Shown piece after piece: positions 21,955 to 64,000 of a stretch of DNA of 64,000 bases (position 1 is the first letter of the stretch; each line of letters starts with the position of its first letter). The stretch is from Strigamia acuminata. Taxonomy: Eukaryota. Made by a program: the position numbers and the translations under genes. The notes under the pieces were generated by a model that was not told the origin of the DNA, searched no databases, and worked only from the letters and a program-made list of their open reading frames with translations. The DNA lies in the NCBI GenBank assembly GCA_949358305.1, contig OX442314.1, positions 11,780,001-11,844,000 of the forward strand, written 5' to 3'.

Positions 21955-23029
21955 AGACTATATCGTCGTGTATACATTTAATTATTATATATATCATTTG
22001 GAATTTCATGATTTTTCATTCGATTGAAAAGAAATTCCAAAGTGTAAATGCTCAAATCACTCATCGGTTGAAACTATGTTAATTAAATTAATTAGAATAT
22101 TGGAATATCAAAAAATGTATACTGTACAATTTAGAATTTATTGGGTTGGGTACAATACTGATCTTGTTTGTATATTTTTAGGTATCGATTGTACTGTTAA
22201 ATAATTTCTTGTTTTCGCAATAAATTTTTTTGTGTGTTTTTTTTCTTCGTTTTTTGTTAATTATTTTTATTTTTTGGTTTGTTAAACATGGATGACGTTA
22301 TGAGACACGTAATTACACGTTCGCGCCACTTGAGTCTTGAGTAAATTCAAGGTTACGTCTGGAGAACGGACCAGATTTAATTATTTGGTTTGAAATATTT
22401 GGATTTATATTTGCAGTGGGCAGTTTAATCGAATAAAAATTCTTTTGAATTGTCCTTGATTAATAATTTACGTTGTGCGTTTTATTTATGTGGTTATATA
22501 AAAGTAACATTTTTCATCGATTTCTTGACTGTTACTGCAAAAGTTGTTGTGTCCAAAAACAATTTATTTTTTTATTACACTAAACTGTATATAAAGCAGT
22601 AAACACGTGTCTATACGTAATAAATTACGCCCATCAATTTGCGTCAATGGATATTTTTAGTTTTGAAAACTAAACAAACGACAAAAAAAATTGTTAAAAC
22701 ATTTTTTTTTTTTTTTTTTTATTTTTAATTTTAATTTATTAAAAAGCAACTTTCAAACTAATAACGCCTCGATTTTATCAATAAAATTCACAATACGGTT
22801 TTTTAAAAAACGCGCGTTTTATTATTAGTATTTAGTAAACAAATCACGACACCTTGTGAGTGAAATATGAACTAATTCAATGGCAGAAAACGGAGCATCG
22901 AATAGCAACGTGGTGCAACGAATACCATGTGGACGAAGTGTTGACGTTTTTCACTCCTGATTTTTTTGAATTCCAAAGTTGTTGTCAGTTGTTAACGCAA
23001 TTTTGAACCGCAACTCGAAAACCATAGAA

Positions 23030-24791
23030 ATGAAACTGGATACACCAGAATTCCACTCGATCTTCACTTCGGAAATGAAAGATTTAATTAACATTTTTCA
23101 AAGACACAATTATGAATTACGAATCGCAGGTGGAGCAGTTCGTGATTTGTTGATGCACAAGCAACCGCACGATATTGATTTCGCATCGAATGCTACACCC
23201 GAACAAATGAAAACAATGTTCACCGAGGAAAACATTCGCATGTTTAACACCAAAGGAGAAACGCACGGAACTGTTTCGGTTCGAATTAACGATAAGGAAA
23301 ATTTTGAAGTGCGCGTAACGAGTGTATATTTTGAGAGCATTTAAAATTGGTTTTAAAATTGAATTTAATTGTAGATTACGACTCTACGAATTGATGTGGT
23401 CACTGATGGTCGTCATGCTGAAGTGCAGTTTACTACGGATTGGTATATAGATGCAAATAGGCGAGATTTGACTATAAATTCCATGTTTTTAGGTATTCTG
23501 TGGTTTGTTTTTGATGAATTTTTGGTCAGGTTTTAATTTTTATTTTATTTTTAAAGGTTTTGATGGAACGGTGTATGATTTTTTTAATGGGATTGAAGAT
23601 TTAGAAAGCAAAAGGATTCGATTTGTTGGTAATGCGGTCGCAAGAATCAGGGAAGATTATCTCAGGATTTTGAGATATTTTAGGTAATAAATGAGGAAAA
23701 AAAATTTGGATTGCCCTAAATGTTGGTTTTCGTAAAAATTGAATTTTTTAGTTGATCAAAAATCGAATTTTTCAAGAAAAAATTGATTTTTCTAAAAAAA
23801 AAAAAAACAATAAAATAAAATTTAAATTTATTCAGGTTTTATGGTCGGATTTCTCAGGAACCCAACAAACACGATCCCGAAAATTTAAAAACAATTCGAG
23901 ATAATGTAAACGGATTGACCGGTAAAACAATACATTATTTAAAAAGAAATAAAAATAAAACATTTTAGCTATTACTTAACTAAATTTAACCTTAGGAATT
24001 GCTGGTGAAAGATTATGGACGGAATTAAAGAAAATCTTAACAGGAAATTTCAGATTTGATTTAATGAAAACAATGCTAGAAGTTGGCATTGCACCACACG
24101 TAGGTAAACAAACAAAACGAAATTAAATCCACAATTTATTCTAATTTTCCCAATTTTTCCTAGGTTTACATGGCAATCTAAACACGAACGAATTCGATAT
24201 GCTCTTTGAAAGAGCCGCTGATTTTCCAATGCATCCAATCACAATAATCGCATCGTTACTCGCAAACGAAGCCGAAATGTTGGCGTTTAACGAACGAATT
24301 AAATTATCGCGTTTCGAAAGGGAATTGGGTTATTTCATAATCGCTCATCGAGAGGATAAACCTTGCGAAGACCCTCTGCAGCCATACCAAGCGCTTATGG
24401 TTTCAACGACGGGGAAAGAATCGGACACGAGAGAATGGGTCGAACAACTTTTGAGCTATCGAGGCGATAGTAAACTGTTGACGGAATTTAAGAGTTGGAA
24501 AGTAAAGGATTAAACTTTGAAATGTGTTGTGAAAATGTATTTTAGAGTTTTTGTTTTTAGTTGCCCAAGTTTCCCGTGAATGGACATCAGTTATTAGACC
24601 GAGGGATTGTCGGGGGAACCAGATTCCAGGGGATAATGGCGGCCATGAAGAAACGTTGGCTTAGCAGTTCGTTTACATTAACGGCTGATGATTTGTTAGC
24701 AAATTTTGATGAAATTGTTCAGGATGTTGATGAACAATATCCTTGTTCGAGTAAGGGGAAGAAAAGGAGCAAAAGAGGCTTGAAACAATAA
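23030..24791 (+). CDS. TRNT1: CCA tRNA nucleotidyltransferase, copy 1 (canonical motifs)
   Basis: Exons 23030-23308, 23375-23492, 23557-23683, 23836-23921, 23996-24103, 24164-24501, 24561-24791. MKLDTPEF...GGAVRD...[40 protein letters not shown] short upstream exon (22880-22909) is possible. Confidence 0.95.
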
Positions 24792-25118
24792 AATTTGTAT
24801 TTTTTTTTTAAAATATTAAATCTTGTTTTTTATTTATTTATTCTTTTTCACTTTTTGCACCAAGATTGCGGCATAAAATTGATCGAGCTATCAAAACAAA
24901 AGTTTTAAATTAATGGTTTAATTCTATTTGTATCGTAATATTTATTTTTGCCTATTTTACTCTTTTTGTAAATAGCGCGCTGGACGCCATTTTTGTATTT
25001 TGGAAAACCCGGAATACGGAGAGGAAAGTATCTCAAAAAGCAGGTAATGTTCATTAGCGTCTACTTTTCACATGAATAAAATACTTTCGAACCAGGAAAA
25101 ATCGTGCTTGTATCAAGT

Positions 25119-26928
25119 ATGAACTCTGGAATTTGCGTTTTTCATTCGCGGTATTTTTTTGGACGCATCTATCAAAAATGCAACCAGAAACGAAAGTTGT
25201 CACAACTTACCTTAAAAAGTCGAATAAATGGCTCGCAACAACGGACGAAATTTTCATCTCAAGCTTTAACGACGAAGCAACGATCACCAACAACGATCAA
25301 GTTGAACAGCCCAGAATTCTACGCTGTATTTACACCTGAAATGAAAACTCTAATTAATACTTTCGAAAAACACAACTGCGAATTGCGGGTCGTCGGTGGC
25401 GCAGTTCGCGATTTATTAATGCAAAAACAACCATTGGATTTCGATTTTGCCTCACCCGCTACCCCCGAACAAATGAAAAGAATGTTCCGGGATGAAGAGT
25501 TTAATACGTTCAAAGACACGGGGGAGACTCACGGCACTGTGTCAGTCAGAATCAACGACAAAGTCAATTTTGAGGTGACAGAATTAATTATAATTACAAC
25601 AACGTTTGAATTATATTTTCAAATAGATTTCGACACTGAGAATTTTCGTTGTCGGAAATGGGCGTCGATCAAAATTGGAATTCACCACAGATTGGTGTTT
25701 GGATGCATCCAGAAGAGATTTAACCGTAAACTCCATGTTTTTAGGTTTGTTCACTCGATTTTAAATTAATTTTAAATTAATTATACGAATTTTTTAAAGG
25801 TTTTGATGGGATTGTTTACGATTACTTCGATGGTATTGAGGATTTAGAAAATAAACGCATTCGATTTGTTGGTAGTGCTGTGGACAGAATACGAGAAGAT
25901 TATTTACGGATATTCAGATACTTTAGGTAAGGATTTCTTAATTATATCAAATTTAAATGATTTTCAAAAAATATTTATTTCCAGGTTTTATGGTCAAATC
26001 GCTAAACAGCCAAACGATCACGATCCTGAAGTCCTAAAAACTATTAAAGATAATATAAGTGGACTTTCTGGTGGGGTATTTAGATTTTTCGATAATAATA
26101 AAATAACAAAAATAGTTAAAATACGGTTAATACGATTTAGGAATTTCTGGAGAACGAATGTGGATGGAAATGAAAAAGATTTTGTGTGGAAATTTCAAAT
26201 TTGAATTGATGAAAACAATCTTGGAAGTAGGCGCCGCACCTTACTTAGGTTTGTGTAAGTGAATGGTTTTATGAGATCTTATATTTTTAACACTTGAATT
26301 GTTTCTAGGTTTATCCCACGATGTAAATACCGAAGAGTTGGAAGCACTGCGCGTAAAAGCGGGTTGTTTTTCACTGCATCCCGTCACGATAATGTCATCG
26401 CTGCTTAAAGACGAGGGAGAAATGTTAATATTTAATCAGCAAATGAAGTTATCCAAGTACGAAAAAGAGTTGGGATATTTCCTTATTCGCCATCGAGATG
26501 TTAAACACGAAAATGGGCTAAAACCGTACGAGGAAAGCGTCGTTTTGGGGTTAGAGAATGAAAAACATTTACGAGAACGAATCGAGCAAGTTTTGAGTTA
26601 TCAAGGTGAAGAAACGTTGTTAGCGGAGTTTAAAAATTGGGAGGTACAAGATTATATACTGATAAATTATTTTAAATAATTAAACAAACTGAAATTGTTC
26701 GTTTATTTATCGCAGAAACCAAAGTTTCCCGTGACGGGCCATCACCTTTACAGATTGGGAGTTCCTTATGGGAGAAGAATGAGCTACATTACGATGGCGA
26801 TGAAGAAACGTTGGCTCGAGAGCTCCTACACTTTAACGGAAAATGATTTGTTAGAAAGTTTTGAAGAAATTGTTGGCGAAGTTAACGAACAATATCCTAA
26901 ACATGAAAACAAAAAACAAAAAAGTTAA
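25119..26928 (+). CDS. tRNA nucleotidyltransferase paralog, copy 2 (RID changed to RIF; basic N-terminal extension)
   Basis: Exons 25119-25574, 25627-25744, 25800-25926, 25985-26070, 26141-26248, 26309-26643, 26716-26928, all in frame. GGAVRD, DFD, RRD, EDYLR and SGERMW retained. Confidence 0.92.
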
Positions 26929-27162
26929 TGAATTGTTGATTTGTTTTGATTTAAATTGAAGTTTAATTTTTTTTTCATTAAGCGACTAAAAACATACATA
27001 CATTCGTGTCAAGGAAAAAAAAGTCATTATTTAAAAAAATGAAGTGTCTCGAAAAAAGCAGAAACTTAAAATAATTTACTGTAGGTTGAACATATCGCCA
27101 CTTTTGGTAAAATAAATGTTTATCTCCATCGGATGTTGGCCACCAGGGAAGTGGCGGCAAAT

Positions 27163-28248
27163 TTACATATTCGAACTAAGTGGTTCTCCTGTATGCATTA
27201 CAACATGACGTTTTAAATTTCCACTTTCAATACAGGAATAGGCACATAAATGACACTTGAATGGTTTTTCACCTGTATGAGTTGCAATATGTGTTTTTAA
27301 ACTTCCACTGTCAATGCAGGAATAAGCACAAAGATGGCACTTGAATCGTTTTTCACTTGTTACGAGTTGCAATGTGTTTTTTACATAATACGCGTGATTT
27401 TTGGGCCACGAAAAAGTGAAATTTCGGGACACGAGACGGTTCAAGACCCGAAAAATTAAACATTTCAGGACACGGGACGGTCCGGGACCCGAAAAATTCA
27501 AAATTTTCGGGACACGGGACGGGTCAGGACTGAAAAATTGGTCCTGTTCTCATCCCTAGTACAAAGATGGCACTTGAATGGTTTTTCACCTGTATGAGTA
27601 GCAATATGTCTTCTTAAATTCCCACTTGTAATAATCACATAAATGACACTTGAATGGTTTTTCACCTGTATGAGTTGCAATATGTTGTTTTAAACTCCCA
27701 CTTGTAATACAGAAATAATCACAAAAATGACACTTGAATGTTTTTCTTCCCGAGTGAGTTCGCATATGGATAACTAATATTTGTTTAAGCCTAAAAGAAA
27801 TTGAACACACTTGGCATTTGAAGGGTTTTTCACCAGTATGTTGTTTTAAACTCCCACTTGTAATACAGGAATAATCACAAAAATGACACTTGAATCGTTT
27901 TTCACCTGTATGAGTTGCAATATGTTGTTATAAACTCCCACTTGTAATACAGGAATAATCACAAAAATGACACTTGAATCGTTTTTCACCTGTATGAGTT
28001 GCAATATGTTGTTTTAAACTCCCACTTGTAATACAGAAATAATCACAAAAATGACACTTGAATGTTTTTCTTCCCGGGTGAGTTCGCATATGGATAACTA
28101 ATATTTGTTTAAGCCTAAAAGAAATTGAACACACTTGGCATTTGAAGGGTTTTTCACCAGTATGTATAAGCATGTGATTCAAAAGTGAATAAAATGAGCA
28201 TGAATAATCACACAAATTGCAACTGTAACGCTCTTGTTTCCTCTTCAT
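27163..28248 (-). pseudogene. Tandem C2H2 zinc-finger pseudogene
   Basis: About 10 fingers with HTGEKPFKC linkers. Premature TAA at 27930-27928 (AAA in sister fingers), a 12-nt deletion near 27840, a frameshift near 27630, and an insertion at ~27385-27558. Confidence 0.85.
27385..27558. mobile_element. One end of a non-autonomous DNA transposon (hAT-like terminus) inserted in the zinc-finger array
   Basis: Ends in ttctcatcccta (reverse complement TAGGGATGAGAA, resembling Ac-type hAT TIRs), preceded by three ~42-bp subterminal repeats (cgggacacgggacgg...cccgaaaaatt). The other terminus and a TSD were not found. Confidence 0.6.
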
Positions 28249-28829
28249 TTTGAATATTAACGAGACTCCAAGCTCTGTGTACAAAACATTTGCTTCGTAA
28301 ACTGGCAGATAAGATATCACTCAATCACATCGAAAATAAACAATCTGAAATTAAAAGAATTCAAATATTATTGGTTCATTTTATAAGCAAGTAGGCAAGT
28401 GAAAAAGTGCACTCTTCCCTCATATCCTTAGTTGTTAGCAATACCAAGCAAAAACAAATTCCTTTCTGCATCCAACTCACGTGTCACTTACGTTTTCTAA
28501 ATATTTAGAAAAATAATTTCTTCTTTTTGACGCTCAGGCGGGTAACCCAGAGGCTCCAGCTATTCCCATTTCTCACAAAAACAAATGTTATTATCTCAAG
28601 TTGTTGGATCGGAGCCCTTTCAATATTTTTTGTTTTATCCATGCATGATGTTCAACTTCGATTTCTCAAACACGTATTCCAGGTCCAAATACTTTGGATC
28701 GATTTTATCTGACGCGAAATAACTCGGACGTGACAACAACTGTTGTTTTAGTATTCAAGTAGTCTTGGTTTTGAGGCACATCTTTAATAAGCTGCGCCGT
28801 CATTAGTTGGTTTTAGCGGGAAAAAATGT

Positions 28830-30661
28830 ATGCGTCCTGTGGCGCTAACAGTGGTAGAAACACGAACTGTCAAAGCAATACGATACGGCGCTGTAAAACT
28901 ATCTGCAAAACAACTGATTGAAGTAATGAGCGCCAAATTGTGCACACTGTTTAATCAAATTCGGTGTAACAAGTTTCTTACGTGCAAAAGTTGGCACGAT
29001 GGGATTCAACGGCGGATCCAGACACGTCATCCGTCTACGTTGAAGTTGGACACGCCGGAATGCCGAGCGATATTCACGAGCGAAATAAAAAAGTTGTTTA
29101 ACGTTTTTCAAAAACACAATCACGAATTAAGGATCGTCGGAGGTTCAATTCGCGACTTATTGCTGCGTAGAAAAATTGGAGATGTTGATCTAGCATCGAG
29201 TGCTACTCCCGAACAAATGCGAACGATGTTTGAAGTGGAAAACATTCGCACGTTCAACAGCAGAGGAGAAAAACACGCCACTGTCACCGTCCGAATTGAC
29301 GATAAAGATAATTTCGCGGTACACTGAAATAATAAAAATAACACATTAATGTCTAAAATAACTTTTTTTTTTTTTTTTATAGATTACGAGCTTAAGAAAA
29401 ATTATTGTAACGTCGGATTCAGAAAGTGAGCAAACTAAACTTGAATTCACTAAAGATTGGTATTTAGATGCATCTTGCCGAGATTTAACAGCAAATGCTA
29501 TGTTTATGGGTAAATTTATTCAATTTTTATTTGTTTAAATAAAAAGAGAAGATGTTTTTTTTTAAGGTTTCGATGGAACCGTGTTCGATTACTTCAATGG
29601 AATTGAAGATTTGGAAAATAGAAGAGTGAGATTTGTCGGCAATGCTGCGGACAGAATACGAGAAGATTATTTCAGAATTTTGAGATATTTTAGGCAAGAT
29701 TTTATTAATTGATAAAAATGTGATTTAAAATTACATTTTTCCATTTTAATTTTAGGTTTTATGGTCTAATCGCCAGGGATCCGAACAGCCATGATTCCGA
29801 TACTTTGAAAATAATTAAAGAAAACATAAGCGGGCTGAGCGGAGTTCCAAAATCGCGTATTTGGACCGAACTGAAAAAAATTCTATCTGGGAAATTCGGA
29901 CCGGAAATATTAGAACAAATGCTGGAAGTTGGGATAGCGCCGTACATAGGTATACAAAATAGTGAACAAAATTGAATATTTGCTAATTTTTTGTTGTTTA
30001 AATTGCAGGATTACCGGAAAATTTGAATTTTAATGAGTTTGAAAAGTTCCGCAAACAAGTTGCCGATTGTCCGATACACCCCGTCACCACACTAGCATCG
30101 CTTCTCAAAAACGAGGCGGACATGTTGGGATTTACTAAATACATGTTGATATCGCATTTTGAAGAAGACCTAGGAAATTTTATCGTAACTGAGCGAGAAA
30201 AGATGCCGCTCGATCCCTTGAAATACTATCAAGAAATGATGATTTTAACGTTAGGAATCCACAAGGAATTGAGGCAGTCGATCGAGCAGTTGTTAATTTA
30301 TCGCGGAGATGTAATGTTATTAAAGGAATTTCAAAATTGGGAGGTAAACTTGTATTTTGGATGTTTTAAATGCATTTTTTATTTAATTTTTTTTTTTACA
30401 TTTTTTATCGATTTTCAGATGCCCACGTTTCCAGTGACGGGTTTACAGCTCGTAGAACGAGGACTTTTGTCCACGGGGAGACGACTGGGCTTCGTAAAGC
30501 GGGCTTTGAAGAAACGCTGGTTTGACAGTTCGTTCACCCTCACGGCGGAAGATTTGTTGGATAGTTTTAAGGAAGTTTCGGCAGAAATCAATGAACATTT
30601 CGAAACACTTTGTAAATCGGAAAAGACGAGAAAGAAAAGAAAAAAGAATTTTGGTTTATGA
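28830..30661 (+). CDS. tRNA nucleotidyltransferase paralog, copy 3 (most divergent active site)
   Basis: Exons 28830 (or ATG 28926)-29318, 29383-29509, 29567-29693, 29756-29949, 30009-30343, 30419-30661, in frame. [34 protein letters not shown]. Confidence 0.9.
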
Positions 30662-31191
30662 TCGGTTTTGTTTTTTGTTATTATTTGTATAAAGATTTCG
30701 AATAAAATAAAATAAAACCACAAAATAAATGTCTTACCTCGCGTTTTTCAGTTTAAAAAAAGCCACTAAACGATTTTGTACGTTCCGTCTTAAGTTCTGC
30801 GCCTCACAGATGTCTCGTGTTATCTCTGAAAAAAAAAAACACAAATTATTCGGTTTTTTAATAATTTTCCACAGAATTTAAGCAGAAATTTAAATTTACC
30901 AAAATAACATGACATAATCATTCAAATTTATTAACCCAAATAGAAGAACTAATTTATTTATTAAACATTACTCATTGAATGATAAAATGTAGAAAGAAAT
31001 CCTATAATTAATATTCACATTTTGTTGATAAAAAACTAAAGATTCAATAAATTATAGATACAATTGAAAATCTCTTTCTTTTCCATTCGCAGTAAAAGAT
31101 CAAGATTACTCAATATAAATACATAAATAACACATTATATCGTTGTAATGTTTTTTTAAATTTGTTTTTAAATGCAAAACGAGTAAATTTC

Positions 31192-32203
31192 CTAATAAAA
31201 TTGTGATTTTAACTTTAATTCCGCTTGTTTAATCTCCAACTGCAGCTGCAGTTCGCGTATTTTCAGCTCCATCATTTCCTTCTCGTGCTTCCTTTGAATA
31301 TTTTCTTGATCTCTATTCCATTGCCATTTTTCCCTTTCAAAATCAAGCTGTGCCAATTTTACTTTCACCATAGCGTTTTGTTCATTGTTTTTGTCTTCCT
31401 GTCTAGCCGAATATATTTTCAGTATTGTGTCAGAAAAATTATTCTTTTTCCCACTCGTCGAAGCACCCGATGCTGAAAATGTTTTCATCGCCTTGACCGT
31501 CGTCGGTTTGCCGTTAACCGGCGACTGCGACTGCGACAGCGGAAGTTCAATTTCATCCGCATCTCTGCAGAATTTTTTCCTCGCACTGCCAAGTTCACTT
31601 ATTTCGAGATCGTCGGCATTTTCGTTGCTTTCGTTGAAACTTTCTTGAGATAAATTGTTGTCATTGTCGAGATCATCTTCGCTCTTGATTATTTTCCCAT
31701 CGATGTCGTTATAGATGGGACTATTCTGCTGAATCCGGTCGTATTCTTGATCGAGGATCCAAAACCACGGACACAGCTTGGTAATTGCACCTAGAAATAA
31801 CGTTTTAATTTAATATACATTCAATTCTTATGTATATATTCGAGCAATGCCTTGAAATGATTGCACTCCTTCGGTTTCCAGCAGATCTTGTCCACTTTCT
31901 TGGGCCCACTGTTTCGTTTTTTTGTATTTATTCTTCAGAAATGTCTCTTTTGAACTTCTCGAGTTGTTACTTCTGTTGAAAATCCCATTTTCTTCGAACA
32001 TTCGCTGCAGCCAATCCTTTTTTTTCTCTTCCTGTTAGAATAAATCGTTTTGGGTTACTCGGGGACACGGATTTTAATTCTCTTTTTCGCATTTTTTCAT
32101 TTGTTACCTTTTCCCGGTAGGGATGTTCCACCATCCATGAAGCCAACCGAATATTTTCCTCTGTTTCCGATTTAGAATTTCTTGACAATCTCGCTTCATT
32201 CAT
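31192..32203 (-). CDS. Myb/SANT-like protein with C-terminal coiled coil (resembles Harbinger-associated DNA-binding proteins)
   Basis: Exons 32203-32108, 32031-31851 and 31790-31192 (second intron GC-AG) form one frame: LASWMVEH...FLKNKYKKTKQWAQESGQDL...AITKLCPWFWILD, an acidic linker, then KLAQLDFEREKWQW...ELKIRELQLQLE. Confidence 0.7.
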
Positions 32204-32790
32204 GTTTGGGGTTGTAAAATTAAAAAAAAAAAACTAAACTTTTATTTCCGAGCAATAAATAGCCCTTGTTTTGTTGCCACCTCTAACCTTCCTCTCGGTA
32301 TTGCTAAGATGAGAACAACAACAACAACAACTTGTGGGTGTTTTTGTTTCCGAGTGAAAATAAACGAGAATATCGTATGAAACTCGGAAAATTGTACATT
32401 TTCGAATGTAAATAATCGTGCTTGTTATTTATCACATTAAAACAAAAACGAGTTACGTTCTAACGCTAAACTTCTCGTTTTATCCGAGGAAACTACCAAC
32501 GAGTGCGGAATTATGGGACATTTCCTGGCGGTGGACGTGGACCTGGTCGCAGCAGACGACGATTCATTTTTCACGATTTTTCATCGTAAAAATAAATTAA
32601 CGAACCAATTTTTAAATTTTTAAATCTTTAAATCTGTAGCGGACGGTCAAATAAAATTACAAATACACTATTTAATTAAATTGTTTACATTTTTCTGCTT
32701 GTCTTGTTGCGCACTGTAGCCAGCAGGAGCGCTAATGTTGCAATGTTTTGAATTTTCGGATGCCAATATATCTTCATCCACAACGAAAAG

Positions 32791-34490
32791 ATGTCATTAC
32801 TCTTCTCAAAGGGTTTCTCGTTGCTGTATAAAATGAGAATACACATTCTCCATCCACGACTGGTCAATTCCTTTCGAGAATTTACTGCACACACGCTAAA
32901 ACCAGCGGTGACGATCAAGTTGGACTCACCAGAGTTCCATGCGTTATTTACACCCGAACTGAAAACACTTATTAACATTTTCGAAAAACACAATCACACA
33001 TTACGGATTGTCGGAGGAGCAGTTCGTGATGTGTTAATGCGAAGACAACCCGCCGATGTTGATTTCGCTTCGATCGCTACGCCGGATCAGGTGAAAATGA
33101 TGTTCAAACACGAAAAAATTCGCATTTACCCCAACGAAGTGGGCGAAAGTCACGGAAACATAACCGTCCGAATTAATGATAAACAAGACTTCCAAGTATG
33201 CATTTTCAAAAACAAATAATTTTAAAATTTACCAATAACTTTTTTTCTTTTTTTCAGATCACAACATTACGGATCGACGAAGCGACCAATGGGCGGTATG
33301 CCAAAGTGGAATTTACCACGGATTGGTATTTGGACGCTTGTAGAAGAGATTTCACAATTAATTCCATGTATTTAGGATTTGATGGAACCGTTTACGACTA
33401 TTTAAATGGCATCGAAGATGTGGAAAATAGAAAAGTAAAATTTATTGGCAAACCCGCCACACGGATAAGAGAAGATTACCTCAGAATTTTGAGATATTTT
33501 AGGTAATAATTTGTAAAATTATTTAAAATTATCGTAAACATCTTTCATTTGTTATTCTTTAAAAATAAGATTTTATGGTCTCGTAACTCAAGACGCAGCA
33601 AATCACGATTCTGAAACATTACGAGCGATTGAAGCGAATATCTGCGGACTTTCTGGTGAAAACGAGCGATTTTAAATGTTTTTAAAACCGATTCATTAAA
33701 TGTATTAATTAGAAATCCACGGGTCGAGACTGTGGATGGAACTGAAAAAAATTCTTTGCGGAAATTTCAAATTCGAGCTGATGAAAACGATTTTGCAAGT
33801 CGGAATGGCGCCTCACTTGGGTAAAAATCCACGCGAAGCAAATTAACGTTTTTACGAACCACTCATTTATCAAAAACTTTATAGGTTTACCTCTAGATAT
33901 AAATCTAAACCACTTCGATAAACTGCACGCACAAAACTCTCGTTTTTCATACGACGCCATCACGATAATAACATCACTTTTAAAAAATAAATCCGACTTG
34001 TCGGCATTCGACGATCGAGTTCGATTGCACAAGTGGGATAGAGAATTATCCACTTTTATAATCCAACATCGTGAAGCCGAACCTCAACAAGATCCCTTAC
34101 AACTATTCCGCGAACTAATGATCCTAACGTTGGAGAATAAATCCAGCATGAGACACAAAATTGAGCAGCTTTTAAGTTACCGTGGCGACGTAAATCTACT
34201 AAGGGATTTTCAAAATTGGAAGGTAAAAGTATAAAAATAAGGAATACAAACTTGGTATTATTTAATTTCCGTTTTAGATGCCGCGATTTCCGGTGCGCAA
34301 TCAGCAACTACGGGAGCTGGGACTCGATTACGGAAAGAAATTCGAGTCCGTAAAGAAAGCCATGCTGCAACGTTGGATGAGAAGTTCGTTCGCTTTAACG
34401 GACCTAGATTTATTGATGAAATTTGACGAGATTGTTCGAGAAATCGACGAACAAAGAAAGAAACCGAAGAAAATCGCAGAAACAAATTGA
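32791..34490 (+). CDS. tRNA nucleotidyltransferase paralog, copy 4
   Basis: Exons 32791-33195, 33258-33502, 33570-33655, 33713-33820, 33885-34222, 34278-34490, in frame. [44 protein letters not shown]. Confidence 0.92.
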
Positions 34491-52551: not shown

Positions 52552-53054
52552 ATAAAAAGGTTTTCGCACGAGAGGACGGTGTGAAAACGTTGGAAACAAA
52601 AAATAAAACGTGTCACAGATGGTGACGAATTCTGGTGATGGAATTCACACCAAATCCACCAAGATCTGCAAACAACAAACTGCAATTACTAAATTGTTTC
52701 ATCGTTCGCATTCGCACATCGCTAAACCAGATTTTCCCCACAAAAATAACACATCAGAGTAAGAACTGACATAATCCTGCCGTCCTTCCTTACCTCCCTT
52801 TGCCAAATCAGCAGTCGGCTCTTGGCAGCCCCGCACAAAATATTCCTCTTTTACGCCATTGGTTCGAATGTGGAATAAAACATTTGCCGCGTATTGATTT
52901 ACTTTATATCTTACACAAAATTTCCCGTTTAATTTTAGAGATTAGTCTAGCCAACAAAATGTAGACAAATAATTTGAAATGGAAAATTATTTCAATATTT
53001 CTTGGATATTTCGTCATAACAGATGACGCAATCGCTTTCCTGAATCTATCCAAG

Positions 53055-54175
53055 ATGGCCTTCACGTGTGTGGCTTGCCGAGTGGATTTTACCGTCGCTG
53101 AGAAGCACCGGGAACACTATAAAACCGACTGGCATCGATACAATTTGAAGAGGAAAGTTGCCGAGTTGCTGCCAATCGACGAAAAGGAATTTAATCAACG
53201 GTTGTTAAGTCATTTGGAGCGAAAAACTGCGCCCAAAGACGAAGGAATTTCAATCTGCAATGTTTGCAAGAAACACTTTTCGTCGTCATTGACCTTCGAG
53301 AACCATTTAAAGTCGAAAAAACACCTTGAATTGGCCGCCAAAAAACCGGAAATCAATGCCGAATCTAAGAAATACGAGAACATTACGTCAAATGCCGAAT
53401 TCGACGACGAAGACGACGAAGAATGGGAAGATGTGGCCGAAGAAGCTGTATTGACCGTCGACGAATGTTTATTTTGTTCGTTTAAATCGGAAAATATCAT
53501 CGAGAACCTGAAACACATGACCGACAGTCACAGTTTCTTCATCCCCGATGTCGAATATCTAGCCGATTTGGAGGGACTCATTAAATATTTGGCCGAAAAG
53601 GTCAGTTGTGGCAATATGTGTTTGTGGTGCAACGAGAAGGGAAAAGCGTTCCACACCACGAAATCCGTCCAACGACACATGCTGGACAAGGGACACAACA
53701 AGATATACTTCGAAAGCGAGAGTTTATGCGAGTTTGCAGATTTCTACGATTATTCCGCGAGTCATCCGGATAATGGCGAGGAAAATGGGGACGAGGAGGT
53801 CAATATTGACGTTTTGGACGACGAGGGCTACGAATTGGTGCTGCCTTCGGGCGCGACGATTGGACACAGATCGCTAATGAGATATTACAAGTGGGTTGGA
53901 GCGGAAAATTTAATTCGAGATTGTTTTTAATCATTTTTTTTTTATTTTTTAGGCAAAATATTCCTCCACCTCGACCGGGACAACTTCGTTCGAAATTGGC
54001 GCCGGTGATGGCGCATTATCGAGCGTTGGGATGGAGCCACAGCCCGCACGAAATTGTGCAGAGGAATGCACGTGACGTTAAATATCTGCAAAATCTGCGC
54101 GCTAAACGGATGATGCAGCAAGGCATTCGAAACAATAAATTGCAGAAACACATTCACACGCAGAAAAGATGGTGA
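53055..54175 (+). CDS. ZNF622: Zinc finger protein 622 (Rei1/Reh1-like 60S maturation factor)
   Basis: FTCVAC...HYKTDWHRYNLKRKVA, CLFC...HMTDSHSFFIPD, ELVLPSGATIGHRSLMRYY. Exons 53055-53890 and 53953-54175. Confidence 0.95.
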
Positions 54176-58949: not shown

Positions 58950-61900
58950 TTAATAACCATTTTTTCCTTTCGAGGATAAATTCATTTCGATACATTTTTT
59001 AATTTCCAGCCCCAAAGCGCGAGCCAATGGTGGCGGGACGGCATTTCCCACCTAAATAAAATCAAAAACAATTACAAAAAAATTCCACCAGTTCTATATA
59101 TAAAAAAAAAACGTATTTTCACCTGTCTATGTCGATCCAGAACAGATCCGTGAAACTTATACGAATCAGGAAATCCTTGTGATCGAGCACACTCACGAAC
59201 ACTTAAAACCCTGTGTTGGTTCGGATGCAAAACTTTACCCTAAAAACCCAAAAATAAATTAAAAAAAACAAAACCTAAAACAAATCGTCATCTTTACTTG
59301 TTTTCCCATGGGCTCGGGATTTGTAATGGTAGTTTTAAAATGACTATCGAGATCCAAGCGCCCGTAAAGACCCGCCCAATTATTATGTCTATTTCCCGTA
59401 TGCGGAAGACACCATGGAATAATAGTGTTGTCTTGCGGCTGTCGGTAGAGCGGATTGCATTTTCTGAACGTCCTATCCTCAACGCACTGACAAACACCTC
59501 TGAAAGCACCGCTTTTCGAGAGTCCGTGTTTAGCATCGTCGTATCGGTACACCCTAGAAGAAATAATAATTAATTTTGATAAAAACACTGACAAATTAAA
59601 TAAAATTTACAATTTTTTAGTGATGGTTCCATCGCTTAGTGCGATTTCTGTGTTGGGCAAATCGCGCCAATCACACGACGGCTCGCACGGGATCAGCTCA
59701 AATCGAGCTAATACGAGTGGCTTCATTTCTTTGCAAATGTGATCGTAGATTCTATCTTCTTTAATGTTTCGACGCATCTGGAATGATTTTTCGTATTGGT
59801 TTAATTGAAAAATAAAATAAAAACGCGAGATTTTATACCAGTTTTTGGAAATGTGACTGTTCCGTTGGATGGTAGTCGAGTTTGCCAATTCTGTCACCAT
59901 TTTTAATAAGCGGTAAATCCGACAGACTGTCCCGCACGGTCACGTATCGGTACGGAGCTGAAGTTGTCCATTGCGTGTTGATTTTGTACCTGCAATTGTC
60001 AACCACTGCGCTGCAATTGTTTTCCTGCTTGAAAACGTGCAGGGGTTCGGGAAATAGTGGCAATTTCTCGCCCGGTGCTGCGGCCAAAATAAAAGCGCTT
60101 CAAACAAAAACGAAATAATTAACATCAAATTAAAAACATGAAATAAAAATCCAAATTTTACCGCATTCGAGATTGTGGCACGCCGTAATTCCCCGCTTGA
60201 AGCGCGCCAAAAGTGCACTGGTAGCCCATTTCGATCAAACATTGCAGACTTAATTTTAAAATCATATTCTCTTTAAAATTCAGAAAATTTCGAACATTTT
60301 CGAGAAGAAAATATTTCGGTCGATAAAATTCACAATAACTGAGGTAGGTCGCGATTAACGAATTTTTGAATTGAGAATATTGCCCCGTAGTGAATCGATT
60401 CATGCCGCTGAACCCCTGGCAGGGCGGTCCGCCACAAAGGAACTCCACGTCGCCTTTCCCCGGCAATGTTTGACCATCTTTAGTTCTAGTTTTGCCCTTT
60501 TAAATCAAAACGAGATAAATTAATTTATGTTTATCGTATTTGCAAAGCTCCAATTACTACCTCCATAATCATCTTCAGTAAAACATTACAATCTTCGTTA
60601 TAAACGTTGCACTTCGGATTATTTTTCTGGTAAGCTCGAGCCGCAATATTGTCATTTTCGATGGCCCAAAACGACTCACACATTCGAGATTGATGCAATC
60701 CTTCTGATAATCCTTTAGAAAAATAATAATTAAGTATTCAAATATAAATAAATACAACGAATCGTTATTTATTAGGAACCTCCACATCCAGCAAACACAT
60801 CCATGGTTTTTAAACGTCGGGAAGTAACTCGATTGGCTGTTTTCTCATTTCTTAGTCTTTTTAATTCACTCGATGGTTCTTCGAACGTCTTTAGATCTGC
60901 ATCGTACACCTAAATAATTAAAAAACATTAGAAAATCAGATGTGTTTTAATTAAAATAAGACTAACAACCTTATTAAAATAAAAGTTATGCTCATTGGAA
61001 TCCCAAAAAAACTGGGTTTCTGATAAATCATTACAATAGCTGACGTTGCACTTTCCCTTAACGATTGAAAAATCAACCGCGGCCTCTATAAAAACAAAAA
61101 CAAAATTGTTATTTGAATTTCCTTTACAGCGATCGATTTTAAGCGCTCAAACCTTCGTTGCTCCAATACAAGTAATTGAAATCGCTATGAAAACTTGCCG
61201 TATCACCTTCGTGAGTGTTCTCCGGTCGATAAAGCTTTTTAATTCTTAATTTAACATCAATTGGCTCAACTAAATCCTTAGAATTAGTTGAGCGGCAATA
61301 TATATTTTCTATGTGACCTATTCTGAACGGTTCTTGAATGACACCATTAACAGTGTTTTTACTTTTCCGGTAATATTCGGGATACAGCTTTTCATCGACC
61401 TGGATTAAATCAAATCAAATTAAATTAACACTGCCAAATATATATTAAAAATTAAAAAAAATTTAAATTACTTTTTTGAATGATGGCTTTTTTAATTTCA
61501 ACGAGGGCGCTGGTTCGGCATCAAATTCAAACGCGTCGGGCGTCAAAAATACTTGATCACCGACGGAATATTCAACATCGTTCCAAGTAACCGAATTGTA
61601 ATAAATGTATTTTGAATTTCTATTCACTTCGTCTTCAATTTGAATCATTTTCTTCTAAAAAATTGATAAAATAAAAATAATTAGTAACTGTAAGATGGTA
61701 AAATGTAGTATTTTGGTGTTTTCAAACCTCTTTTGCCGATTGCAATCTCTTACAACACGGACAGTAATTATAATAGATTTCATCTTCCTTCAAGTATATT
61801 TCTGGTGGATCTTCGAAACGCGCGCTGGATCTTTGATACCACTTCTCATAAAAATAACAACCATCTTCGTTTTGTTCGTCTTCCACTTCATTTCCCCCTA

Positions 61901-63925
61901 AAAATGCCCAATTAGAGGGCGGCGGTTTGTAAACGACCGAACATTTTGATTTAACATCTGATAGCTGCACATTTTCACATTCGTCGACTAAAAATAAGAG
62001 ATTTTTCTTGGCAGTTCCCCCTAAAACCGTGTCGGAGCCGTTACTAGAGTAAAATGTGTTTAAAAAACAAGTTAGAAATTGATTAAAATATCTCTTAATG
62101 ATGTTTAAAATACCAGAACCAATGGCAATGGAATAATTTGGCGTTATTCTTATTTTCCCACAAGTACACCACTTTTCCTACTAATATTGAATCGATTGAT
62201 TGGTCGGGAGTGACAATCACGGAATCGCCAACTTTAATCTAAATTTATAAATTAAATAAATAATTTTAATTTATTATTATTATTATTATTATTATTTTGT
62301 AATTTCTTACCACTTCACCATTAACCTTCACTGCACTGTAAAACGATTTATCAGCAATAGTTAATTCCTTTTTTCCCACCCAAGCCACCCGAGCACTGCA
62401 CGAGTCGGAATTTCGCTGCCGTGTAAGTTTGGGAAAATTTACTTCACTTTCAATCTAAAAATCGAATAAAAAATTATAATTAAATAAATCGTAAAACTTA
62501 ATTAAGGTATTACGTCTTTTAGAAATTCATCTTCGGAATCGCTGAATTCATTTTCACTACTATCACTTTGTTGCTAAAATAAAAAAAGGTAAAACAAAAA
62601 TTAATTTCTATACTAAATATAAAATATTTCCTTCTAACTCACTTTGCCGCGCCCGTTTTCCACTAATTTCGGACTGGTTTTTAGTTCACGCGCAATTTGG
62701 TCTCTGAACATCGTTTCAAAAACTTTTCTAACTACAGGTGTCGTTGTAGCTTTCGATCCTTTCTGTTTCTCTCTAACAACTCTCGGCAACCGATCAACTT
62801 TCTGTGAGCTGACCTTCTGCTTAGTTTCAGGAGATTCAGCTGCCTCGTGTCTATCTCGTATTGTAACTCCAGCGAGTCGCGTCAGTGTTTTCATACACTT
62901 CGTTTGGCACAAAGAATTTTCGTCGTATTCGGCAGCGTCGTCGTAACTGGAGAGATGATCAGCTATGAATTGAGCATGATGAATTAAATTCTCTTCACTA
63001 AAATTACTGAATCCTTTCGGTGGCGTGTGTACCTACAAGTACAATAATCATTTAGAATAAAGTACATAAACGAACAATTTTTGTCTGACTTGTATTTTAT
63101 TTATTAGATCTTCGTACGTTCCATTCTCATTATCCTCCAGAAATTCAATCACCAATTTACTTAAATACACTTTAATCATGGTGGATTTCATAAAAGGTGC
63201 GTACGACGTGTTGGGTGTTCCCAAATAATAATTGGCAAATTCTAAAAAAAAAAAAAATAATAATAAAAATTAGAATAAAATAAAATAAATTGATCTAGAA
63301 ATTCTTACCGGATGAAATCCCTATGATTACATCACTACCTCCGTCGTAGCCACTGCTCCACCACTCAGTAATAGGCCCAATCAACGAAACACACACACCA
63401 CCTGTAATCGAAAAATATTGATTTTCCATTTCGTAACAGCGAATTAAAAATTGACCTTCTGGACTGAGATCATCATCAAATATCGGTTTAACACAACCGC
63501 TGAGAGAGAGAATTTGTCCATCCTCTATTAATCCGGAATCAAAAGGACATAAATGCATTTTTTTGTCGTACACGCTAAAATCAACGATTTTATAATCGGG
63601 TTTGGAGTCTTCGTCGTAGTTGAAAGCGCCACCAGTGTCCACGCTCAACTTTGCGTCAAAAATTACGTCGGTTTCACTCAACTATATAAAAATAAACACC
63701 AGATTAATCTATTCAAACTGTTAGAAATAAAAAATTAAAAAAAAATCGATCGTTTACTCCATTATCTGTATTCTCTGTATATGTAACCAGATTATCGTCT
63801 AAAAATTGCAAACAACTAGAACATCTGGAAGGTCGCGATTTTTTGCACTCGTTTAGTTCTAGTTCTTCATATTTCATTTTTTTGGTAATTAAGTTGTTGG
63901 TACCACTAGATTTACGTTTGGAAGA
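58950..63925 (-). CDS. DNMT1: DNA (cytosine-5)-methyltransferase 1; 5' end probably beyond the window
   Basis: RFTS domain ([18 protein letters not shown]), two BAH domains, motif [59 protein letters not shown]. Confidence 0.96.
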
Positions 63926-64000
63926 GCTGAAATTAAAAAATGAATGATTATATCTTTTGGAAATTGATATTAAGCAGTAAATTAAACACTCACAAGCAAT

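What the first reader, a model, noticed from the sequence alone, without database searches (positions are those of the whole stretch)
23030..34490. Four intact tandem CCA-adding-enzyme paralogs: a candidate specialised tRNA 3'-end maturation or repair system in an animal
Seen: four same-strand TRNT1-type genes within ~11.5 kb, all with open spliced frames, DxD and EDxxR, but substantially diverged from one another. Known: animals typically use a single dual-targeted TRNT1; multiple or split (CC-adding plus A-adding) enzymes are described in some bacteria, fission yeast and a few protists. Inference: retention of three diverged extra copies, each with different changes in otherwise conserved motifs, points to division of labour rather than decay. 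Some arthropods and relatives (centipedes, spiders, velvet worms) have truncated or mismatched mitochondrial tRNA acceptor stems whose 3' ends are rebuilt post-transcriptionally by enzymes that, to my knowledge, are unidentified. These paralogs are plausible candidates if this species has such tRNAs.
Basis: partly seen in the sequence, partly recalled or inferred. Interest (0 to 1): 0.92.

Follow-up and report, generated by a model that had tools for sequence, protein, structure and literature searches.

The report
Centipede's four specialised tRNA-tailing enzymes
A soil centipede carries four intact, long-conserved copies of the gene that adds the CCA tail to tRNAs, where animals usually have one; one copy looks ordinary and likely serves the cytoplasm, while three altered copies are predicted to go to mitochondria and likely share out the finishing, and possibly the repair, of mitochondrial tRNAs that are stunted in a close relative.

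Summary
Confirmed and extended. Four same-strand TRNT1 genes (23030-34490) splice into open frames (428-504 aa, 49-62% identical), each under purifying selection (branch dN/dS 0.10-0.17). The host is a geophilomorph centipede close to Strigamia maritima, whose mitochondrial tRNA genes often lack acceptor stems. Copy 1 is canonical and has no recognisable mitochondrial leader. Copies 2-4 have basic leaders and lost the internal Met, so they are predicted mitochondria-only. Their changes hit residues of known role: copy 2 lost D128 (human D128G abolishes A addition), a change kept in its S. maritima ortholog; copy 4 and a further S. maritima paralog share E121Q at the third catalytic carboxylate; copy 3 lost D128, the loop, R150 and E121. 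All keep the EDxxR C/A template. Best reading: one cytosolic CCA enzyme plus a mitochondrial team with partial activities (copy 2 CC-adding, copy 4 finishing A76). That they rebuild acceptor stems, as in Lithobius editing, is possible (about 0.2) but unsupported by the intact template and the apparently young duplication. No expression or activity data. New variant of a known kind; I found no report of it in animals.

The parts
23030..24791 (+). g1: canonical TRNT1, 428 aa, exons 23030-23308, 23375-23492, 23557-23683, 23836-23921, 23996-24103, 24164-24501, 24561-24791; starts at the conserved internal Met; predicted cytosolic/nuclear CCA-adding enzyme
   Evidence: model; all catalytic residues kept; 4 of 104 conserved columns differ; in-frame stop at 22967, no leader-like spliced extension from ATGs at 22600-23030
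25119..26928 (+). g2: 480 aa, exons 25119-25574, 25627-25744, 25800-25926, 25985-26070, 26141-26248, 26309-26643, 26716-26928; 59-aa basic leader; D128F, R99N, altered loop; E121 kept; predicted mitochondrial CC-adding enzyme
   Evidence: ortholog S. maritima T1IQP8 77% identical with the same D128F and leader
28830..30661 (+). g3: 504 aa, exons 28830-29318, 29383-29509, 29567-29693, 29756-29949, 30009-30343, 30419-30661; basic leader; E121A, D128I, loop replaced (+3 aa), R150C, E236S, K314/K317 lost; most remodelled copy; one GC-AG intron
   Evidence: dN/dS 0.17
32791..34490 (+). g4: 464 aa, exons 32791-33195, 33258-33502, 33570-33655, 33713-33820, 33885-34222, 34278-34490; 41-aa basic leader; E121Q, T110N, E236S, one-residue insertion before the beta-turn; keeps R126, D128, G133, R134, R150; predicted mitochondrial A76-finishing enzyme
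   Evidence: groups with S. maritima T1ILR3, which shares E121Q
27163..28320 (-). degenerate C2H2 zinc-finger repeat between g2 and g3, high-copy in the genome; not part of the system
   Evidence: Pfam zf-H2C2_2; summed contig depth 8,000-35,000 against about 110
31192..32200 (-). unrelated spliced gene between g3 and g4, head-to-head with g4; no Pfam match above cut-off

Best explanation
An ancestral dual-targeted TRNT1 gene was tandemly duplicated in a geophilomorph centipede lineage into four intact, selected copies that likely split the work: copy 1 is predicted to add CCA in the nucleus/cytosol, and copies 2-4 are predicted to be mitochondria-only enzymes with partial activities that together would finish the 3' ends of degenerate mitochondrial tRNAs. 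Shown: gene structures, open frames, purifying selection, one centipede clade, leader gain/loss pattern, which residues changed, conservation of the copy-2 changes in a second species. Inferred from human and yeast mutants: copy 2 adds CC but not A76. Inferred by elimination: copy 4 (intact B/A motif, loop G-R, R150) adds A76 or full CCA in mitochondria despite E121Q. Weakest step: copy 3 is a slow C-adding or 3'-end-binding factor tuned to tRNAs with a poor acceptor stem (it lost E236, K314, K317, which touch the acceptor stem in human TRNT1).
For: Open spliced frames and shared intron positions. Branch dN/dS g1 0.10, g2 0.15, g3 0.17, g4 0.17 over dS near 1 per branch; dN/dS=1 rejected for g2, g3, g4; an unconstrained copy keeps frame and splice sites in under 2% of simulations after 0.05 substitutions/site. 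Six centipede proteins form one clade 100/100, derived copies 90/82. g1 begins at the Met found in 74 of 85 homologs and has the length of the short isoform listed for Anopheles (428 against 468 aa); g2-g4, T1IQP8 and T1ILR3 have Ile/Leu there plus leaders of net charge +5 to +12, like homolog leaders (median +7). Changes at near-invariant columns: 14, 21, 17 of 104 in g2, g3, g4 against 4 in g1 and 0-8 in 85 homologs, concentrated in the 3'-end-handling region (17 of 32 columns against 13 of 55, Fisher p=0.009, region chosen after seeing the data). All 10 g2-specific changes are also changed in T1IQP8, 8 to the same residue. Human D128G specifically abolishes ATP addition (bioRxiv 10.64898/2026.03.02.709036); the S. 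pombe CC-adder keeps only the basic residue of the B/A motif (PMC7014341); human loop D103/G104/R105 to Ala gives CC only (PMC2910056). S. maritima: acceptor stem severely truncated or lacking in 8 of 16 mt-tRNAs found (PMC4368715).
Against: No expression, localisation or activity data. E121 is one of three catalytic carboxylates in human TRNT1 and is E in 85 of 85 full-length homologs; E121Q/A may kill g3 and g4, and I found no paper on its mutation in class II enzymes. Leader assignment rests on charge and amphipathicity only; 11 of 85 homologs also lack Met in that column, and an unseen upstream exon or non-AUG start could target g1 to mitochondria. S. maritima orthologs of g1, g3 and g4 were not found, so g3 and g4 are confirmed in one genome only. 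dS is close to saturation (pS 0.66-0.71), and dN/dS of derived copies is not significantly above g1's (p=0.16). Sequence alone failed to predict activity for S. rosetta enzymes, and A-adding specificity in bacteria lies in the C-terminal part, not tested here. Single TRNT1 enzymes cope with armless tRNAs in nematodes (PMC7730189), so odd tRNAs do not require duplication; split enzymes elsewhere are thought neutral.
Confidence: 0.55

Rival explanations
1. One or more of the mitochondrial copies (most likely g3 or the E121Q lineage) is the long-sought editing enzyme that rebuilds the missing 3' strand of mt-tRNA acceptor stems, either copying the 5' strand or by trial-and-error C/A addition.
For: Host clade and mitochondrial leaders fit; S. 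maritima genes lack acceptor stems; in Lithobius 21 of 22 mt-tRNAs are 3'-edited by an unidentified activity (PMC4284800 passages; still called unidentified for related cases in 2024, PMC11571959); changes cluster in primer-handling elements; E236, which binds position 71 of the acceptor stem in human TRNT1, is lost in g3, g4 and T1ILR3.
Against: E193/D194/R197 template intact in all copies, whereas Lithobius editing uses all four nucleotides; recombinant CCA enzymes could not restore truncated ends; mtPAP repairs the human case (PMC4787750 abstract); the duplication lies after 0.40 of stem with 0.18 left to g1, so it may postdate the split from Lithobius (rough, assumes even rates); editing has not been shown in Strigamia.
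Confidence: 0.2
2. g3 and g4 are catalytically dead or nearly dead pseudo-enzymes kept as tRNA-binding helpers; mitochondrial A76 comes from mtPAP or from an unseen mitochondrial isoform of g1, with g2 supplying CC.
For: Loss of the third carboxylate in both; T1ILR3 also has D77E; g3 has partial, broken extra pieces elsewhere in the genome; the predicted fold of T1ILR3 stays TRNT1-like (pLDDT 88, Foldseek to 4x4w E 1e-34), as a binding scaffold would.
Against: DxD, H108, R126, R151/D152 and the whole template are retained in all over long branches; the E121Q lineage keeps precisely the A-switch residues; motif C/D columns are mostly intact.
Confidence: 0.15
3. Neutral subfunctionalisation or tissue-specific redundancy with no link to odd tRNAs: all copies add CCA more or less normally, or some are just starting to decay.
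For: Split activities are argued to be neutral in other eukaryotes; tsetse flies also hold a second, loop-shortened TRNT1-like protein; loss of function within the last 0.02 substitutions/site leaves frames intact in 14-20% of simulations; loop D-to-N occurs in 4 of 85 ordinary homologs.
Against: D128F is conserved between two species and E121Q between two paralogs 52% identical; changes cluster in functional elements; compartment pattern is consistent across five derived proteins.
Confidence: 0.1

Closest known systems
Animal TRNT1 (a-type class II CCA-adding enzyme; human 4x4w)
   Same: Fold, motifs A-E, intron-bearing orthologous gene; g1 keeps every catalytic residue checked and is 55-58% identical to tick and other homologs.
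   Different: Usually one dual-targeted gene (PMC4538823); here four, with the leader and the internal Met apparently sorted to different copies and catalytic residues changed in three.
Split CC- and A-adding enzymes of Schizosaccharomyces and Salpingoeca rosetta
   Same: CC-adders keep the loop but lose B/A acid or loop residues, as g2 and g3 do.
   Different: There two enzymes replace one; here a canonical enzyme persists and the partial ones are predicted mitochondrial; no third-carboxylate loss is described in the passages I read.
Four tRNA nucleotidyltransferases of Acanthamoeba castellanii (Ntr1-4)
   Same: Four genes; one CCA enzyme without and one with a mitochondrial leader; a CC-adder with altered B/A motif, loop and motif B; an organism with mt-tRNA editing.
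   Different: e-type enzymes plus a horizontally acquired A-adder, not a tandem a-type expansion; editing there is 5'-end and by another polymerase.
Romanomermis culicivorax CCA enzyme adapted to armless mt-tRNAs
   Same: Adaptation maps to the beta-turn region, where g2, g3 and g4 also carry changes.
   Different: A single enzyme serves both pools; catalytic motifs unchanged.
Lithobius forficatus mt-tRNA 3' editing activity
   Same: Centipede; defective encoded acceptor stems.
   Different: Enzyme unknown, uses all four nucleotides with apparent RNA template (seen through review PMC4284800 only); different centipede order.

Membership tests
class II a-type tRNA nucleotidyltransferase (TRNT1 family) | PF01743 head domain and placement among animal TRNT1 | tested here: met
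   fold of the S. maritima paralog matches 4x4w
class II a-type tRNA nucleotidyltransferase (TRNT1 family) | motif A DxD, motif B xRD, motif D EDxxR | tested here: met
   all four; g3 has CRD instead of RRD
full CCA-adding enzyme | three catalytic carboxylates D77, D79, E121 | tested here: not met
   met in g1 and g2; not met in g3 (Ala) and g4 (Gln) (residue role)
full CCA-adding enzyme | B/A motif R126-x-D128 and loop G133-R134 | tested here: not met
   met in g1 and g4; D128 lost in g2 and g3; loop lost in g3
full CCA-adding enzyme | adds C, C, A to tRNA in vitro | not testable with these tools
   needs recombinant assay
eukaryotic CC-adding enzyme | loss of B/A acid and/or loop residues with intact core | tested here: met
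   g2 and its ortholog T1IQP8; g3 also, but lacking E121
eukaryotic CC-adding enzyme | CC addition without A76 in vitro | not testable with these tools
   needs recombinant assay
A-adding enzyme | C-terminal constraint excluding tRNA without CC | not tested
   no sequence signature available for a-type enzymes; g4 assignment is by elimination
mitochondrial protein | N-terminal basic amphipathic leader | tested here: inconclusive
   g2-g4 net +5 to +12, 0-3 acids, moment 0.33-0.49 against homolog median 0.48; crude score, no trained predictor
RNA-templated acceptor-stem editing polymerase (Lithobius type) | ability to use all four NTPs, expected to need a changed protein template | tested here: not met
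   E193/D194/R197 unchanged in all copies; sequence-level test only
pseudogene | broken frame or dN/dS near 1 | tested here: not met

The most novel reading that the evidence does not exclude
The mitochondrial copies, having shed a catalytic carboxylate and acceptor-stem contacts, are the centipede tRNA-editing enzymes: CCA-adding enzymes repurposed to rebuild the missing 3' strand of mitochondrial tRNA acceptor stems, the activity sought since its discovery in Lithobius.
Probability: 0.2. Interest if true: 0.93.

Novelty: new variant of a known kind. Interest (0 to 1): 0.76.

Why it matters
Animals are held to manage both tRNA pools with one CCA-adding enzyme. A selected family of four or five, sorted by compartment and each altered at a different step of the reaction, would be the first split CC/A system in an animal that my searches could find, and gives natural variants of residues mutated in human TRNT1 disease (D128, T110, R99). 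It hands over concrete, clonable candidates for the unidentified enzyme of animal mt-tRNA 3' editing, in a genus whose mt-tRNA genes lack acceptor stems, and tests whether a class II nucleotidyltransferase can work without its third carboxylate.

Tried and rejected
No whole genome held, so copy number outside the window and this species' mt-tRNAs were not examined. RNA search: no RNA holder listed; no evidence either way. Assembly or haplotype artefact rejected (49-62% identity, single-copy depth). Pseudogene reading rejected for the long run, not for very recent loss. Searched for a leader-coding upstream exon of g1: 58 ATG/GT/AG combinations from 21700 on, net charge at most +4 overall and at most +2 for ATGs downstream of 22600. 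First gene-model script had off-by-one donors, fixed. A fragment alignment was too poor and not used. S. maritima orthologs of g1, g3, g4 not found (best 120 of 424; best 150 of 156, 50% clusters can hide them; 2 hits among 7994 scored). T1ILR3 as one-to-one ortholog of g4 disfavoured: 1.24 changes/site against 0.30 for the g2 pair. The first tree was the quick one only. Three rows of the residue table (G64, G65, R67) are mis-numbered and not used. Earlier scan findings: three look-ups, nothing. Papers not held: Lavrov 2000, Toh 2009, Cho 2007. No complex was predicted, as no binding is claimed.
Full report
Observation. The window holds four TRNT1-type genes on the + strand between 23030 and 34490. 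Spliced by coordinates they give 428, 480, 504 and 464 aa without internal stops, with introns at shared positions and phases; g3 and g4 each lack one different intron. 21 of 22 introns are GT-AG and one in g3 is GC-AG. Exon 1 of each passes PF01743. Identity is 49-62%. Contigs of two DNA-like runs from one study match g1, g2 and g4 without difference and tile g3 at the depth of the flanks, about 110 in X1; they may be the source, so they check the assembly only.

Host. A 280-aa exon of the neighbouring ZNF622 gene is 85% identical to Strigamia maritima T1IQQ3 and 51% to the next named hit, a millipede (best 120 of 2642). The host is therefore a geophilomorph centipede close to S. maritima. 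[quoted passage not shown] In Lithobius 21 of 22 mt-tRNAs are completed at the 3' end with all four nucleotides by an unidentified activity (review PMC4284800, passages; the original paper was not held). The mt-tRNAs of the window's own species were not seen.

Selection and history. On 410 codon columns pairwise dN/dS is 0.13-0.21 with dS 1.6-2.2, near saturation. A branch codon model gives 0.10 (g1), 0.15 (g2), 0.17 (g3), 0.17 (g4); dN/dS=1 is rejected for each derived copy (p 1e-6 to 8e-8), but derived copies are not significantly faster in dN/dS than g1 (p=0.16). An unconstrained copy keeps frame and splice sites in 14-20% of simulations at 0.02 substitutions/site and under 2% at 0.05, without counting indels, so only very recent loss of function is open. 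Two S. maritima relatives were found: T1IQP8, the ortholog of g2 (77% over the core), and T1ILR3, 45-54% to all four. In a 24-row tree with the trait columns removed, the six centipede proteins form one clade (100/100), the five derived ones 90/82, g2+T1IQP8 100/100, g4+T1ILR3 82/88. T1ILR3 is probably a fifth lineage. The stem to the duplication is 0.40 and g1's own branch 0.18, so with even rates the duplication is late in centipede history and may postdate the split from Lithobius (inference).

Compartment. g1 starts at the Met found in 74 of 85 full-length homologs; an in-frame stop lies 21 codons upstream, and no enumerated upstream exon yields a leader-like peptide. Its 428 aa equal the short isoform listed for Anopheles beside a 468-aa long one; that this Met starts the cytosolic form in animals is recalled knowledge. 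g2, g3, g4, T1IQP8 and T1ILR3 have Ile or Leu there and carry leaders of 37-70 aa with net charge +5 to +12 (homolog leaders median +7, n=53); the g2 leader is visibly conserved in T1IQP8. Prediction: g1 cytosolic/nuclear, the others mitochondrial. The score is crude, and 11 of 85 homologs also lack this Met.

Active sites. Human numbering was read from the alignments; residue roles come from bioRxiv 10.64898/2026.03.02.709036 (passages and parts 2-3 of 9; its supplements and gels not seen). Of 104 columns at least 95% conserved in 85 of the 120 listed homologs (those of 380-600 aa), g1 differs at 4, g2 at 14, g3 at 21, g4 at 17; homologs differ at 0-8. The changes concentrate between the beta-turn region and motif B (17 of 32 columns against 13 of 55 in the rest of the core, p=0.009, post hoc). 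g2: D128F, R99N; E121 kept. Human D128G specifically abolishes ATP addition, and the S. pombe CC-adder keeps only the basic residue of this motif (PMC7014341, parts 1-2 of 7). All 10 g2 changes are also changed in T1IQP8, 8 identically, and T1IQP8 has further lost loop R134. g3: E121A, D128I, loop replaced, R150C, E236S, K314 and K317 lost; xRD in motif B with loop changes is typical of CC-adders (PMC7947759, passages). g4: E121Q, T110N, E236S, one-residue insertion, but R126, D128, G133, R134, R150 intact; T1ILR3 shares E121Q and has D77E, E236Q. E121 is the third catalytic carboxylate (aligns with Bacillus E79, whose role is recalled). Of 141 fetched proteins that match this motif (274 scanned) only T1ILR3 lacks the Glu. 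D79, H108, R126, R151, D152, E193, D194, R197 are intact everywhere. The AlphaFold model of T1ILR3 is confident (pLDDT 88) and matches human TRNT1 (E 1e-34); it says nothing on activity.

Mechanism. Best reading (0.55): g1 adds CCA outside mitochondria; inside, g2 adds CC, and g4, the only derived copy in the window with the A-switch elements, finishes A76; g3 is a weak C-adder or 3'-end factor for tRNAs with poor stems. The g2 step rests on mutant data, the g4 step on elimination and is threatened by E121Q, for which I found no class II mutant data. Rivals: stem-rebuilding editor (0.2), dead helpers with mtPAP or a hidden g1 isoform supplying A (0.15; mtPAP repairs human mt-tRNA-Tyr, PMC4787750 abstract), neutral redundancy (0.1). 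Against the editor: intact C/A template, failure of ordinary CCA enzymes to restore truncated ends, young duplication, editing unproven in Strigamia. For it: clade, leaders, loss of acceptor-stem contacts.

Novelty. Multiple and split enzymes are known in bacteria, Schizosaccharomyces, choanoflagellates and Acanthamoeba; eukaryotes usually have one gene (PMC4538823, passages), and a nematode with armless tRNAs adapted its single enzyme (PMC7730189, passages). No paper in the library holds both 'CCA-adding' and 'Strigamia'; searches (20 of 1,089 listed) showed no animal case in their listings; subscription journals are mostly not covered. Extra copies in animals are not unique, however: tsetse flies and a horsehair worm have second TRNT1-like proteins. 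Other papers consulted as passages without changing the reading: PMC11571959, PMC2910056, PMC3925840, PMC11646218, PMC9601646. Verdict: real, selected, new variant of a known kind; interest 0.76.

Noticed in passing
pieces laid on window 29277-29718 and 29892-30782 (runs X1, X2): Extra g3-like fragments exist elsewhere in the genome: one at about 0.37 of single-copy depth with several substitutions and a 2-base loss in exon 1, and one at about twice single-copy depth that joins 29928 to 30641. g3 is shedding partial, broken duplicates while the window copy stays at full depth.
   Followed up: partly
P0304 and cluster (Glossina, five species): A conserved second TRNT1-like protein of 364 aa with the B/A acid changed to Lys, a shortened loop, KRD in motif B and no tail domain; looks like an independent animal CC-adding-type paralog.
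   Followed up: partly
P0346, P0424 (Gordionus sp.): Two near-identical TRNT1 copies with adjacent accessions in a horsehair worm; one has Asn in place of the template Asp.
   Followed up: no
P0241 (S. maritima T1ILR3): D77E together with E121Q, and in g4 an Asp two residues before Q121 on the same strand: possible carboxylate compensation; speculative.
   Followed up: no
window 27163-28320 (-): High-copy degenerate C2H2 zinc-finger repeat with an insertion at about 27367-27560, between g2 and g3.
   Followed up: no
window 34786 onward (-), 52965-54175 (+), 59600-64000 (-), about 17360 (-): Neighbours: MAGUK with SH3 and guanylate kinase domains tail-to-tail with g4, ZNF622, a DNA cytosine methyltransferase, SRP54-like exon. 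UniProt ids T1IQP8 and T1IQQ3 are close, hinting at the same neighbourhood in S. maritima (inference).
   Followed up: partly
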